NCBI GenBank assembly: GCA_048937405.1
Contig: JBHLNF010000007.1
Span: forward strand, 121,336-185,335
Direction: 5' to 3'
DNA: 64,000 nt
From: Promethearchaeota archaeon
GTDB taxonomy: Archaea; Asgardarchaeota; Lokiarchaeia; Sigyniarchaeales; SOKP01
This document shows positions 24,789 through 28,820 of the stretch, one piece after another. Numbering within the stretch: the first letter of the stretch is position 1; every line of letters starts with the position of its first letter. The notes under the pieces were generated by a model that saw only the letters and a list, made by a program, of their open reading frames with translations, had not been told where the DNA came from and did not search any database. The translations under genes and the position numbers were made by a program.

Positions 24789-25364
24789 TTAAACCTCTTT
24801 AACTGATTCATATGCATCTTTAGCAACGCTCATATTTTTCTCTAATCTGTTTTCTCCAAATTCCTTCGTAATAACTTTCTCCATAGTTTCTAAATTATAG
24901 TATCCTGTAACCTTCCCGAAAGCTCCTAACATAGGTATATTTAAAATTGGTCCACTTGCATGCATAAAATTCCTTTTAATACATATCCCTGTGGCATCTA
25001 CAAGAAAGATCTTAATGTTATTTGGGAGATCACTTTTATCTATTTTATTAGCACTATTAATTATGAGATTAACTCCTTCTTTTATTGTACTTCTAATCGT
25101 GGGAATCTCTAATAATGAAGTATCAAAAATAAGCATATAATCAGGATTTTTTACACTATCATACGTTTTAATTGATTTATTTTTCGAAACTTTTGTAAAT
25201 GCTTGAATTGGAGCACCTCTTCGTTCAGCTCCAATTATCGGAATTGCAATTGTATCCTTGAAATCTTCCTCGTATGCCATTTCTGCTAACAATTGACTCG
25301 CAGTAATACATGTCTGACCACCTCTACAATGCATCGATATTTCTACTATCTTTTCATTCGACAT
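24789..25364 (-). CDS. porG: 2-oxoacid:ferredoxin oxidoreductase gamma subunit
   Basis: HCRGGQ, GAERRGAP, NIPMLGA. Confidence 0.93.
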   Translation of the reverse strand: MSNEKIVEISMHCRGGQTCITASQLLAEMAYEEDFKDTIAIPIIGAERRGAPIQAFTKVSKNKSIKTYDSVKNPDYMLIFDTSLLEIPTIRSTIKEGVNLIINSANKIDKSDLPNNIKIFLVDATGICIKRNFMHASGPILNIPMLGAFGKVTGYYNLETMEKVITKEFGENRLEKNMSVAKDAYESVKEV

Positions 25365-25766
25365 TTTTTTCCACTTTTTTCTTTTTTAATTTTTATATGC
25401 AATTTTCTCAGAACAACCAACAAAAACGCCGAGATATAACTTTTCTGGGTTGTCTGTTAGTTAAATTCTTATACTAATACAAGAATAAGAATTAATGATA
25501 ATAATACTAATAAGTTTCGGATAATAATACTATGATTTTTGCCTATAATCATCATTATTTCCTCGACGTTATAATATTATTCAAAAATTTATAATACTTT
25601 TATTTAATATCTTAAAAAACAGTGATCAATAAAAAATTTTCGAAATAGATTTATAATTTTGGGAATAATAAACAAAAAAGTAATTAGCTTAATTAGATAA
25701 ATATCAAAACAGAAAAAAAGTAGTGTTTATTATTTTAAATTAAATAAACCGTTTTATATTGAAGTT

Positions 25767-26330
25767 ATGTCAGAAAAGGCAGCAAATTCAGAAGAAGTTT
25801 TTTCCTTCAAGTGCCCAACTTGTAAAAATGGTATAATTGCCATTAAAAAAGCGATATATGACTTGCCAGATGGGGATAAAATGCTGATATTAAAATTTGA
25901 ATGCAATTCCTGTAATTTCCATAAAAACGATATAATCCCCTTAACTACAAATATGGAATCGGGAATTATGACCTTAAGAATTACCGAAGAGAATGACCTA
26001 AAATCTAAGATTTACCGATCACCTACAGGTAAATTAGAGATTCCTGAACTAGATATAATAGTAGAACCGGGTCCCAGAGCTGATTTCTATTATACTAACG
26101 TACAAGGTATATTATTTCGATTTGAACAGGCAGTCTCAATATATAGAAATAGCCTTGAAAAGAATGATCCAGCTAAAAGTGAAATGGATGAACTTTTATC
26201 TACTTTAAAACATGCTATAGAAGGTAAATTTAAGTTTACTTTAAAATTGACAGATTTCCAGGGAGGTAGTTATATCATTCCTGAAGATAAATCAAAATAC
26301 ACTTTCAAGAAAATTCAGAAAGAGGAATGA
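25767..26330 (+). CDS. zpr1: ZPR1-type zinc finger protein
   Basis: CPTC...CNSC, IPEL.I.VEPG, TNVQG, LTDFQGGSYI. Confidence 0.9.
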   Translation: MSEKAANSEEVFSFKCPTCKNGIIAIKKAIYDLPDGDKMLILKFECNSCNFHKNDIIPLTTNMESGIMTLRITEENDLKSKIYRSPTGKLEIPELDIIVEPGPRADFYYTNVQGILFRFEQAVSIYRNSLEKNDPAKSEMDELLSTLKHAIEGKFKFTLKLTDFQGGSYIIPEDKSKYTFKKIQKEE

Positions 26331-26465
26331 TTTAGGATTTTTTTCTAATTTTATAATCTTTTTATGAAAATTAAAAAATCAGAAAGTTAAGAAAGCTAAG
26401 AGATTTAAGAAGGAAGTTAATCAATTTATTGTAACAAGAAATTCTTAGCTAGAAAGAGACAAATA

Positions 26466-27542
26466 ATGCAGCGAGAGATAAAACACTACAATAGGTGGTT
26501 AACTAATAATATTCAAGGTTATCTAAAAGGACTTAAGGGTGAAATCAGGGTCCTATTTGAACCATATATAGAATTCAAAAAAATGGGTACACTTTTTGGG
26601 CTTTACAAAAATTACATTCCAACTAATAGGATGCATAAATATTGTAGAAAAATTATAGCTAAAAATACTTTAGATAAAATGCGTGCTAAATTCAAAAAAT
26701 TTATTGAAATTTGGATAGAAAAATACCCACATTTGGTTCAGTCATTATTATTAGTACAATCTTATATTATGAAGTATATTGATGAATATGAGGTAATTCT
26801 TCAACCAAAACCTTCCCCAGATTATCAAATGTACAAATTCCATCCTGCTTTTAAAAGAAACTATTTTGAAATAATCGATACATATGAAAAAGCATATTGG
26901 CTTGGATTTCTATTTGCTGATGGATGGATTGCAATAGAACATAAGAAATCTGGAGATTATTATCGAATGGGGCTCCAATTATCATATAGCGATAAAAGAG
27001 TTGTTAAGGAACTTTGTAAATGTATAGGATTAAATCCCAGTTTTATTAAAATTCGTCTAGTAAAAAGTGATTTTAGTACGAAAATATATCCTATAAGTGA
27101 AATTAGATGGGGAGATCAGAAAATGGCTCAAGATCTATTAAAAATAGGGATGAGATATGAAAATAATGAAGAAAAAGGAAGACGAGTTAAAACACCAAAA
27201 CTTCCAAACTTAAAAAACCGAAATTTGATGCTAGCATTTTTATTAGGTTTCTATGATGGTGATGGCACCCTTGGATATGATAAAAAGACTGGTAAAATTC
27301 GTCCTAGAATTGCTTCCTCAGATATTGAATTTTTACGACAAATAAAAAATTTTTTTGGAATTAAATACAAAATTTCTTCCACTGCGATGTTATATTTCAA
27401 TATTAGAAAAAAGAAAATGATTAAAACAAGAGGGAGTAGACTTGATATTGAAAAAGAGATTTTTAAAAAAATGTTAAGTGTATATAAAAAAAGTCTTGAA
27501 AGGAAAAGAGTTTCATTAGATTATTTTAATGGTACTCATTAA
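26466..27542 (+). CDS. Free-standing double-motif LAGLIDADG homing endonuclease-like protein
   Basis: AYWLGFLFADGWI and AFLLGFYDGDGTL motifs. Confidence 0.88.
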   Translation: MQREIKHYNRWLTNNIQGYLKGLKGEIRVLFEPYIEFKKMGTLFGLYKNYIPTNRMHKYCRKIIAKNTLDKMRAKFKKFIEIWIEKYPHLVQSLLLVQSYIMKYIDEYEVILQPKPSPDYQMYKFHPAFKRNYFEIIDTYEKAYWLGFLFADGWIAIEHKKSGDYYRMGLQLSYSDKRVVKELCKCIGLNPSFIKIRLVKSDFSTKIYPISEIRWGDQKMAQDLLKIGMRYENNEEKGRRVKTPKLPNLKNRNLMLAFLLGFYDGDGTLGYDKKTGKIRPRIASSDIEFLRQIKNFFGIKYKISSTAMLYFNIRKKKMIKTRGSRLDIEKEIFKKMLSVYKKSLERKRVSLDYFNGTH

Positions 27543-27640
27543 AATTGAATAAAATAGTTATTGATATAAGATATTTTTTTTATAATTTGCATTCTTTCTA
27601 ATAGATATAATATCAAAAAACGTTTTAGAAGAAGGTTTAT

Positions 27641-28820
27641 ATGACAATAAAACGAGTAGGAATTTTAACAGGCGGCGGAGTCATGTCTAAGATTTAACTT
27701 AACTGCCGTTTACTGTCCTGGGTTAAATTCTGTTCTCTATGGAATCATGCTTAAAGGTTATGATGCAGGAATTGAATGTGTTGGGATCCTGAAAGGATGG
27801 AAAGGATTTGTGGAAAATCAAACAATTCCACTTGATATTGCAGAACATGATGATTTACATACTGTTGGTGGAACAATTTTATATACAAGTAGAACAAATC
27901 CCTTTAAAAATGTGAGTTCAAAAGAGCAAAAAGCAAAAAATTTAACCAAAAAATTTGAAGAATTAGGAATTGATGCTCTAATTGCTATCGGTGGAGATGA
28001 TACTCTTGGAGTAGCTGATACTATATATAAGTTTGGAGATGCTAAGGTAGTTGGAGTGCCCAAAACCATTGATAATGATTTAGCAGGGACTCATTATACA
28101 TTTGGATTTTGGAGTGCTGTACAATTAGCTTCAAATACTCTCGATAATCTTACTACTACTGCTCATTCACATCAGAGAGTATTTGTTGTAGAAATTATGG
28201 GAAGGGATGCTGGTTTTTTAACAATGTATAGCGGAATTTCTGCAGGAGCAGATATAATCTTAATTCCAGAAACTCCATTTGATTTAGAAAAAGATATAAT
28301 AAATGTTTTGAAAAATCGAGTTGATGCAGGATATAAATATCACATTATTGCTACATCAGAAGGAGCATATCCTAAATTAGAATCGCTAAATAGAGATTTT
28401 AAAACTATTTCAAAAGAAACAATTGATAAACTACCGAAGGATACATATGGAAATCCTTTATTGGCTAAATTAGGTATGTCTAAAATAATTGTCGATGAAC
28501 TTGATTTAAGAGATGATTTAAAAGAAAAATTTCAAGAAAATGGAGTAGAATTTGAGTGTAGAAGTGTAGTACTTGGTCATACTATGCGAGCAGGAACTCC
28601 AAATTCATTTGATAGAATATTAGGGTTAAGATTTGGATTAGCAGCAATGAAACTTGTTTTAAACGGTGAATTTGGGAATATGGTCTCTCTTCAAGGAAAT
28701 AAAATTCAAACAGTTCCCTTATCAGAAGGAGTTAAAAAGAAATATATCACCACCGAGAATGATAAAATGGAATTAAGAGATCTTTTAGTAAAAATCCGCT
28801 ATTTATCCAAACAAAAATAA
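27641..28820 (+). CDS. pfp: PPi-type 6-phosphofructokinase, join(27641..27680,27712..28820), 382 aa after removal of a 31-nt intron
   Basis: Exon 1 MTIKRVGILTGGG + spliced GAC + CPGLNSVLYGI is in frame with ORF 27747..28820; GGDDT and PKTIDND indicate PPi specificity; MGRDAG, LGHTMR. Confidence 0.92.
27681..27711 (+). other. 31-nt bulge-helix-bulge (tRNA-type) intron in the pfk mRNA
   Basis: Helix GCGG(27675-78)/CCGU(27706-09), bulges AG|U and UU|A, internal and exon stems; removal restores the GAC (Asp) codon. Confidence 0.88.

What the first reader, a model, noticed from the sequence alone, without database searches (positions are those of the whole stretch)
27641..27750. tRNA-type (bulge-helix-bulge) intron inside the phosphofructokinase mRNA
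Seen: the ORF track starts PFK at 27747 and misses its N-terminal motif. ATG 27641 gives MTIKRVGILTGGG-G, then a 31-nt insert (27681-27711), then AC-TGT-CCT-GGG-TTA-AAT. Joining G|AC restores GGGDCPGLN in frame; shifting the 31-nt deletion by one base gives Val or Tyr instead of Asp. Unspliced, the frame stops at TAA 27695. The junctions form a canonical BHB: helix GCGG/CCGU and 3-nt bulges AG|U and UU|A, with cuts after the second bulge base falling exactly at the needed sites. There is an intron hairpin (CA-GU-UAAG/CUUA-AC-UG) and a long exon-exon stem (GAAUUUUAAC.AGG / CCU..GUUAAAUUC). Known: archaeal EndA and RtcB process BHB motifs; the best-known archaeal mRNA intron is in crenarchaeal cbf5. 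Inference: an Asgard archaeon splices a central carbon metabolism mRNA with its tRNA splicing machinery, which could make glycolytic flux depend on splicing. Standard annotation would give a truncated PFK.
Basis: partly seen in the sequence, partly recalled or inferred. Interest (0 to 1): 0.95.

Follow-up and report, generated by a model that had tools for sequence, protein, structure and literature searches.

The report
tRNA-type mini-intron in Asgard phosphofructokinase
The only phosphofructokinase gene of this Loki-type Asgard archaeon is split inside its active-site motif by a 31-base insert shaped like a tRNA intron; comparison with about 75 related genes indicates it must be cut out of the mRNA, and it appears to travel with a selfish DNA-cutting-enzyme gene lying just upstream.

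Summary
ATG 27641 opens a 13-codon exon. A 31-nt insert (27681-27711) splits an Asp codon as G|AC, and removing it restores GGGDCPGLN of a single-copy PFK (Pfam E 2e-82).

The insert and its flanks form a bulge-helix-bulge motif, and the two canonical cuts fall exactly at the required junctions. About 3 in 10,000 arbitrary position/length pairs in this genome pass the same rule.

Of 77 orthologues with a resolved N-terminus, 21 carry an insert at this site (30, 31 or 32 nt; two sequence types) and 56 lack it precisely. The central helix keeps pairing through a double change that involves a synonymous Gly-codon position. The flanking Thr-Gly-Gly-Gly codons are nearly fixed with the insert and vary freely without it. 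Exon 2 has dN/dS of 0.05-0.10.

The genome encodes two EndA paralogues and RtcB. No RNA data exist, so splicing is inferred.

New here: the insert is the right end of a 1.38-kb cassette (26332-27711) holding an intact free-standing LAGLIDADG gene, a replacement promoter region and exon 1. That gene or its remnants occur only beside insert-bearing alleles (8 of 21 against 0 of 56). This suggests collaborative homing.

The scan has already flagged such mini-introns in other genes of this genome, and similar cassettes in other Asgard genomes.

The parts
26332..27711 (+). Cassette: LAGLIDADG gene, replacement upstream region, PFK exon 1 and the intron. In the nearest intron-less relative, 130 nt occupy this place.
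   Evidence: In L065 (90% nt identity), homology runs over window 24961-26331 and resumes at 27714. L126, L138 and L092 share the same left boundary.
26466..27542 (+). Intact free-standing LAGLIDADG homing-endonuclease-like gene (358 aa)
   Evidence: Pfam LAGLIDADG_3 E 8e-9 and LAGLIDADG_1. Homologues or remnants lie upstream of pfk only in intron-bearing alleles.
27641..27680 (+). PFK exon 1: MTIKRVGILTGGG plus the first base (G) of the Asp codon
   Evidence: The peptide VGILTGGG is conserved in all alleles.
27681..27711 (+). 31-nt BHB-type intron (type A)
   Evidence: It is present in DNA contigs from two studies.
27712..28820 (+). PFK exon 2 (AC of the Asp codon, then CPGLN... to the stop codon)
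   Evidence: Pfam PF00365 E 1.9e-82 and NCBIfam PFK_mixed. dN/dS is 0.05-0.10.
27675..27678 (+). Central BHB helix H, 5' strand (GCGG, exon 1). It pairs with 27706-27709.
   Evidence: 97.5% of cells are paired in 10 alleles, with a C:G to U:A double change.
27706..27709 (+). Central BHB helix H, 3' strand (CCGU, intron)
27679..27681 (+). 5' bulge A G|U, cut after the second base
   Evidence: The cut rule is taken from PMC2738675.
27710..27712 (+). 3' bulge U U|A, cut after the second base
27682..27705 (+). Intron hairpin h' (27682-27691 with 27698-27705, two single-base bulges, 6-nt loop)
   Evidence: Four pairs show changes on both sides across types A and B.
27671..27674 (+). Outer exon helix h, 5' strand. 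It pairs with 27713-27717 (U27714 bulged).
   Evidence: 98% of cells are paired. Variation is limited to G-C/G-U and C-G/U-G.
27713..27717 (+). Outer exon helix h, 3' strand (exon 2)

Best explanation
The 31 nt at 27681-27711 are an archaeal bulge-helix-bulge (tRNA-type) intron in the pre-mRNA of the genome's only phosphofructokinase. Exon and intron bases fold into h-B-H-B-h'. The (alpha-beta)2-type splicing endonuclease EndA cuts after the second base of each 3-nt bulge. RtcB joins G27680 to A27712, which recreates the Asp codon of GGGDCPGLN and releases a small, probably circular, intron. These steps are inferred from sequence and comparison; no RNA was observed. At the DNA level the intron is the right-hand end of a 1.38-kb mobile cassette that carries a free-standing LAGLIDADG endonuclease gene, its own upstream region and a replacement exon 1. 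I think it most likely (about 45-50%) that the endonuclease cuts intron-less pfk at the conserved GGGDCPGLN-coding site. Repair from a cassette-bearing allele would then copy the endonuclease gene, exon 1 and the intron together, and the intron would protect the carrier by disrupting the target site (collaborative homing). Afterwards the endonuclease gene decays, and the intron persists or is lost precisely.
For: Shown by sequence:
- The exact junctions restore the motif, and the unspliced frame stops at 27695.
- In the exon-2 frame there is no ATG, GTG or TTG between the stop at 27666 and CPGLN, so these conserved codons can only be read after joining to exon 1.
- The site passes a strict BHB rule with a genome-wide frequency of 3e-4.
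- The cut position matches the rule stated for cbf5 introns (PMC2738675).

Comparative evidence:
- 21 alleles carry an insert at the identical site and 56 lack it to the base.
- Inserts of 30, 31 and 32 nt all restore G|AY under the same cut rule.
- In the 10-allele alignment 94.8% of cells are paired, against 53% or less when partners are slid. Five pairs changed on both sides, including H pair C:G to U:A, whose exon partner is a synonymous Gly third position.
- The Thr-Gly-Gly-Gly codons are ACGGGCGGCGGA in 14 of 18 intron-bearing alleles, but show 41 variants among 56 intron-less alleles.
- A second intron in relatives shows the same freezing of flanking codons.
- The type-A intron is 82% identical on average, against 37% at 74 fourfold-degenerate sites of the same genes.
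- dN/dS is 0.05-0.10, and none of 18 alleles has a stop or frameshift in exon 2.
- PFK is single-copy.
- Two EndA paralogues and RtcB are encoded.
- The insert is in DNA contigs from two studies, and a co-occurring intron-less relative joins exactly at 27712.

Cassette evidence:
- Searches give the boundaries.
- The endonuclease gene or remnants occur in 8 of 21 intron-bearing alleles and 0 of 56 intron-less ones.
- The intron needs 13 changes on the pfk tree. The window's two nearest alleles are one intron-less allele and one with the other intron type plus a decayed endonuclease gene.
- Exon 1 is mosaic relative to the gene body.
Against: - There is no RNA evidence at all: no RNA run holds the locus.
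- Energy-based folding prefers a shifted register, and the z-score is not significant.
- Within type A alone there is almost no covariation. Its high conservation could therefore reflect recent horizontal spread rather than selection on structure.
- Helix h in the window's own allele is weak: A27670/C27718 is a mismatch and U27714 is bulged.
- 5 of 18 intron-bearing alleles have ATA or ATT where the start codon is expected, against 2 of 56 intron-less alleles with ACG.
- For the homing part, only 4-5 phylogenetically independent contrasts exist (4 concordant, 0 discordant, sign test p 0.125).
- 13 intron-bearing alleles show no trace of the endonuclease gene.
- Another paralogue of the endonuclease in this genome sits upstream of aIF5B with no intron visible.
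- Endonuclease gene relatedness does not follow intron type.
- No cleavage data exist.
Confidence: 0.8

Rival explanations
1. The intron is real and spliced, but its link to the LAGLIDADG gene is incidental. On this view the intron is old, inherited vertically and by ordinary recombination, and lost many times by precise deletion or cDNA-mediated conversion. The endonuclease cassette merely landed upstream of some intron-bearing alleles, or it targets a different site.
For: 13 of 21 intron-bearing alleles show no trace of the endonuclease gene. The pair L084/L087 shares its upstream region at 96% identity and differs only in the intron and a few flanking bases. L107 looks like a precise loss that keeps the frozen exon codons. 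The sign test is not significant. The aIF5B paralogue has no intron.
Against: No intron-less allele (0 of 56) has the endonuclease gene. The cassette's right boundary coincides with the intron's 3' end. Three states occur within one tight clade: no cassette, type A with an intact endonuclease gene, and type B with a decayed one. C-terminal endonuclease remnants abut exon 1 in L073, L092 and L126.
Confidence: 0.3
2. The insert is an inactivating insertion, so pfk is a pseudogene or makes only a truncated product from ATG 27747.
For: Unspliced, the frame stops at 27695. Standard ORF calling gives a 357-aa product lacking GGGDCPGLN.
Against: dN/dS is 0.05-0.10 with dS up to 2. No stop or frameshift occurs in 18 alleles. 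The codons for CPGLNSVLYGI upstream of ATG 27747 are conserved with synonymous variation. Exon 1 is conserved. The gene is single-copy.
Confidence: 0.03
3. Translational recoding reads across the insert, either by ribosomal bypassing (as in T4 gene 60 or mitochondrial byp elements) or by a programmed frameshift.
For: The insert is short with a hairpin, follows a GGA codon and has a stop soon after. This is superficially like gene 60.
Against: The Asp codon is split G|AC, and a codon-wise hop cannot rebuild it. There is no matching landing codon before 27712. Inserts of 30, 31 and 32 nt at the same site would need three different recoding events. The conserved pairing is between exon and intron bases in BHB geometry, not a take-off hairpin.
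Confidence: 0.03
4. The insert is an assembly or binning artefact of a MAG.
For: The genome is a metagenome-assembled genome with 5.7% contamination.
Against: Contigs from two independent studies carry the sequence without differences. 21 assemblies from different projects carry covarying versions.
Confidence: 0.01

Closest known systems
BHB intron of the cbf5 (pseudouridine synthase) pre-mRNA in Crenarchaeota (Watanabe 2002; Yoshinari 2006; Yokobori 2009, PMC2738675)
   Same: It is a short ORF-less intron inside a coding sequence, with BHB-like exon-intron structure. It is cut between the second and third bulge bases by a hetero-oligomeric EndA and shows a patchy gain/loss pattern. It must be removed to give a functional protein.
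   Different: The phylum differs (Asgard/Promethearchaeota), as does the gene (a central-metabolism kinase). Relatives carry two independent introns in the same gene. The intron is linked to a free-standing homing-endonuclease cassette. Spliced cbf5 cDNA has been sequenced; here no RNA has been seen. Per PMC7714728, cbf5 was the only coding-sequence example known in 2020.
Non-canonical BHB introns of archaeal tRNA genes (Marck and Grosjean 2003; Asgard tRNA census, bioRxiv 10.64898/2026.10.13.758758)
   Same: The motif, size class (about 30 nt) and presumed enzymes are the same. Asgard genomes are rich in such introns and carry (alpha-beta)2 EndA (PMC5829648).
   Different: [quoted passage not shown]
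Collaborative homing in phages: free-standing F-CphI beside the psbA group I intron (PMC6083498) and T4 MobE with the I-TevIII intron (PMC2790892)
   Same: A free-standing endonuclease gene lies next to an ORF-less intron. The intron sits in a highly conserved coding site, and intron and endonuclease gene are inherited together.
   Different: The intron here is a protein-spliced BHB mini-intron rather than a ribozyme. The endonuclease is a LAGLIDADG protein, the host is an archaeon, and the cassette also supplies a replacement first exon. Target cleavage is untested.
LAGLIDADG-encoding BHB introns of archaeal rRNA genes (e.g. I-DmoI; reviewed in PMC2738675)
   Same: An archaeal BHB intron is associated with a LAGLIDADG homing endonuclease.
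   Different: In those cases the endonuclease gene lies inside a long intron. Here it is outside, about 140 nt upstream of a 31-nt intron.

Membership tests
Archaeal BHB (EndA-type) intron | [quoted passage not shown] | tested here: met
   H is 27675-78 with 27706-09 (three Watson-Crick pairs and one G-U). The bulges are 27679-81 and 27710-12. The site passes a strict rule with a background frequency of 3e-4.
Archaeal BHB (EndA-type) intron | Cuts between the second and third bulge bases give the functional exon junction | tested here: met
   G27680|A27712 restores GAC (Asp) and GGGDCPGLN, and ±1 shifts do not. The rule is stated in PMC2738675. It also holds for the 30-, 31- and 32-nt variants.
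Archaeal BHB (EndA-type) intron | Flanking helices h (exon-exon) and h' (intron) | tested here: met
   h' has 8 pairs with 2 bulges. h has 4-5 pairs with one bulged U and is weakest in the window's allele, so the form is slightly relaxed.
Archaeal BHB (EndA-type) intron | Structure conserved with compensatory change among homologues | tested here: met
   94.8% paired against 53% or less when slid; 5 pairs with double changes. Within type A alone the result is inconclusive.
Archaeal BHB (EndA-type) intron | Host encodes splicing endonuclease and RtcB ligase | tested here: met
   Two PF01974 paralogues of 197 and 200 aa, one of which appears to keep the Tyr/His/Lys residues, plus one RtcB. The subunit roles are read from motifs, which is inference.
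Archaeal BHB (EndA-type) intron | Spliced RNA or excised (circular) intron observed | not testable with these tools
   No RNA run holds the locus.
Phosphofructokinase (PF00365, PFK_mixed) | Full-length domain including the N-terminal GGGDCPGLN loop | tested here: met
   Exon 2 matches profile positions 11-276 of 277. Exon 1 supplies the missing start only after the join. GGDD and PKTIDND suggest a PPi-type enzyme, which rests on my own knowledge and is untested.
Collaborative homing unit (free-standing endonuclease gene plus ORF-less intron) | Endonuclease gene adjacent to, and co-distributed with, the intron-bearing allele | tested here: met
   8 of 21 against 0 of 56. Only 4-5 independent contrasts exist, p 0.125.
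Collaborative homing unit (free-standing endonuclease gene plus ORF-less intron) | Endonuclease cleaves the intron-less allele at or near the intron insertion site, while the intron-bearing allele is immune | not testable with these tools
   Indirect only: the cassette's right boundary is the intron's 3' end.
Programmed translational bypass (T4 gene 60 / byp) | Matching take-off and landing codons flanking the gap | tested here: not met
   The split codon is G|AC, and there is no GGA or GGN landing codon before 27712.

The most novel reading that the evidence does not exclude
Free-standing LAGLIDADG cassettes actively seed tRNA-type mini-introns into conserved protein-coding genes of Asgard archaea. 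The endonuclease cuts the intron-less conserved motif. Repair copies the endonuclease gene, a replacement exon and a BHB mini-intron that both restores the reading frame after splicing and immunises the carrier. [quoted passage not shown]
Probability: 0.45. Interest if true: 0.92.

Novelty: new variant of a known kind. Interest (0 to 1): 0.86.

Why it matters
Protein-spliced introns inside archaeal coding sequences were known experimentally from one gene, cbf5, in Crenarchaeota. No paper in the searched library reports them in Asgard archaea. Here a core glycolytic/gluconeogenic enzyme of a Loki-type archaeon cannot be made without mRNA splicing by the tRNA machinery, and relatives carry a second such intron in the same gene.

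Three consequences follow.
- Standard annotation mis-calls such genes as truncated or broken, which biases metabolic reconstructions of Asgard MAGs.
- Exon codons are visibly constrained by RNA structure.
- The linkage to a homing-endonuclease cassette offers a concrete, testable route by which ORF-less introns spread into protein genes in the lineage nearest to eukaryotes.

Tried and rejected
- RNA evidence: no RNA holder is listed for the locus. Only DNA contigs could be laid.
- Metagenome scan for the spliced junction (GGCGGCGGAGACTGYCCNGG): all 120 hits are intron-less PFK genes of other organisms. The five AT-rich hits have different flanks, so the scan gives no information.
- Energy-only folding: it does not recover the BHB and prefers a shifted GGC-repeat register. 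I kept the BHB register because type-B alleles break two pairs of the shifted register but none of H.
- Genome-wide strict BHB scan with an ORF-joining filter: 563 candidates with no length peak at 30-31. It is dominated by gene-boundary false positives and misses pfk itself, because exon 1 is only 13 codons. It cannot be used as a census. It did re-find an acyl-CoA mutase candidate.
- BHB candidates near the other five LAGLIDADG paralogues were noise. The aIF5B gene downstream of one paralogue has no visible intron.
- An old exon-1 scar upstream of the endonuclease gene in the window: none found.
- Co-divergence of endonuclease gene and intron type: not seen.
- The regulation-of-glycolysis idea: nothing bears on it.

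Full report
**Observation.**
ATG 27641 opens MTIKRVGILTGGG and ends with G27680.
- The next 31 nt (27681-27711) contain an in-frame TAA at 27695. From 27712 the sequence reads AC TGT CCT GGG TTA AAT.
- Joining G27680 to A27712 gives GAC (Asp) and the PFK signature GGGDCPGLN. Shifting the deletion by one base gives Tyr or Val.
- Exon 2 is a PFK domain (PF00365, E 1.9e-82, profile positions 11-276; NCBIfam PFK_mixed). It is the only PFK in the 4.47-Mb, 100%-complete genome.
- In the exon-2 frame there is no ATG, GTG or TTG between the stop at 27666 and CPGLN. The conserved codons upstream of the mechanically called ATG 27747 can therefore only be translated after joining to exon 1.

**Structure.**
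- GCGG 27675-78 pairs with CCGU 27706-09, forming the 4-bp helix H.
- A79 G80|U81 and U10 U11|A12 are the two 3-nt bulges. The intron hairpin starts immediately after the 5' bulge.
- G27674 pairs with C27713 and begins the exon-exon helix.
- The cuts required by the protein fall between the second and third base of each bulge. This is the rule stated for cbf5 introns (PMC2738675).
- A strict version of this rule is met by 3.0e-4 of all position/length pairs in the genome, and this site is one of them.
- Energy minimisation alone does not favour the BHB. The MFE and RNAalifold slide the GGC repeat by three bases, and the BHB-constrained fold lies 1.5-6 kcal/mol higher. This is usual for bulged, protein-bound motifs, but it means the case rests on comparison rather than on folding energy.

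**Comparison.**
- Close relatives are Promethearchaeota/Promethearchaeia (Loki-type Asgard) MAGs.
- Across genome search and genome-contig loci, 21 alleles carry an insert at exactly this site and 56 lack it to the base, reading GGN GGN GGN GAY TGY.
- There are 18 type-A inserts (31 nt) and 3 type-B inserts (30 or 32 nt) with a different sequence. All restore G|AY under the same cut rule, which a frameshift or ribosomal hop could not do.
- In a 10-allele alignment, 94.8% of cells are paired under the BHB, against 53% or less when partners are slid. Five pairs changed on both sides. One of them is the H pair C:G to U:A, whose exon partner is the synonymous third position of a Gly codon.
- Within type A alone covariation is negligible.
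- The four codons before the junction are ACG GGC GGC GGA in 14 of 18 intron-bearing alleles, but show 41 variants among 56 intron-less alleles.
- The type-A intron is 82% identical on average, while fourfold-degenerate sites of the same genes are 37% identical.
- Exon 2 shows dN/dS of 0.05-0.10, with dS up to 2, and no stop or frameshift in 18 alleles. The gene is therefore functional and the insert is not neutral.

**Machinery and DNA reality.**
- The genome has two EndA paralogues of 197 and 200 aa, and one appears to keep the catalytic Tyr/His/Lys. This fits the (alpha-beta)2 enzyme reported for Asgard archaea (PMC5829648). It also has one RtcB.
- DNA contigs from two studies carry the insert without differences. 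Contigs of a co-occurring relative match from 27712 onward and continue upstream directly into an intron-less exon 1.
- No RNA run holds the locus.

**The cassette.**
- The nearest intron-less allele (L065, 90% nt identity) aligns with window 24961-26331 and again from 27714. Its 130 nt in between are replaced in the window by 1380 nt.
- Those 1380 nt hold an intact free-standing LAGLIDADG gene (26466-27542), a new upstream region, a different exon 1 (MTIKR... instead of MGIQIKK...) and the intron. The intron's 3' end is the cassette's right boundary.
- Homologues or decayed remnants of this gene lie upstream of pfk in 8 of 21 intron-bearing alleles and in none of 56 intron-less ones.
- On a pfk tree built without the junction columns, the intron needs 13 changes. 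The window's two closest alleles are one with no cassette and one with a type-B intron and only a remnant of the endonuclease gene.
- Exon 1 is most similar to other intron-bearing alleles even though the gene body is not.
- The pair L084/L087 shows a short exchanged tract. L107 looks like a precise loss that kept the frozen exon codons.
- This pattern fits collaborative homing as described for phage free-standing endonucleases (PMC6083498, PMC2790892). However, only 4-5 independent contrasts exist (4 to 0, p 0.125), 13 intron-bearing alleles show no trace of the endonuclease gene, and cleavage is untested.
- Five paralogues of the endonuclease lie beside other conserved genes in this genome. 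One carries an old N-terminal gene scar, and another sits upstream of aIF5B without an intron.

**Literature and earlier notes.**
- In the searched library, coding-sequence BHB introns are reported only for crenarchaeal cbf5, plus a 5'-UTR case in Haloferax (PMC7714728). A 2026 preprint treats Asgard tRNA introns only.
- Earlier notes of this scan flag similar mini-introns in other genes of this genome, and endonuclease-plus-mini-intron cassettes in other Asgard genomes. I reached the pfk cassette reading before seeing those notes, and I count them as leads, not evidence.

**Verdict.** This is very probably a real tRNA-type intron in an Asgard metabolic mRNA, and probably one that arrived with a homing-endonuclease cassette. 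Splicing and homing both await RNA and enzyme experiments.

Noticed in passing
window 27997/27998 (GG|DD motif); relatives L075, L084, L092-L095, L097, L103, L104, L107, L113, L120, L122, L126: 14 of 74 orthologues carry a second, unrelated 30-nt insert with in-frame stops that splits the Asp codon of IGG|DDT as G|AC. It has BHB geometry (h UAUCG/CGAUA, an imperfect H, and bulges AG|U and AN|A). Its flanking codons are frozen (GCTATCGGTGGAG|ACGATAC) in carriers and free in non-carriers. The window lacks it but keeps the frozen left flank, which may be a footprint of loss.
   Followed up: partly
G000 contigs C20:3028-4101, C28:467808-468614, C10:42117-42701, C7:997782-998684, C7:929944-930903: Five paralogues of the LAGLIDADG gene are present, three of them broken by stops or frameshifts. 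They lie beside conserved genes: a DUF1848-like gene with a stranded old N-terminal fragment upstream, an aldolase-like gene, a Nudix gene, the rpl24e/rpl7ae cluster and aIF5B.
   Followed up: partly
G000 C15:3033-3063 (+) and C7:314151-314179 (-): The strict BHB and ORF-joining scan re-found a 31-nt candidate intron in an acyl-CoA mutase large subunit (...RLFSGHG|TPEETNKR...). It also found a 29-nt candidate in a PurM/HypE-like gene (...FLCGFHV|TRAALRDLYVKG...).
   Followed up: no
whole genome G000: ARAGORN finds only 21 tRNA genes in a 100%-complete genome, and 15 of them are called with introns. This is consistent with heavily interrupted tRNA genes that standard finders miss.
   Followed up: no
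relatives L075, L093, L094, L097, L130 (exon 1); L128, L129: Five intron-bearing alleles have ATA or ATT, and two intron-less alleles have ACG, where the pfk start codon is expected. The cause is either non-canonical initiation or a start I did not find.
   Followed up: partly
window about 27915 (relatives L127-L137): Divergent orthologues carry a 30-nt in-frame coding insertion (10 Lys/Glu-rich residues, no stops). It is an ordinary indel, not an intron.
   Followed up: yes
Its distal pairs break wherever Ser is AGY, so it is probably a by-product of coding rather than part of the motif.
   Followed up: yes
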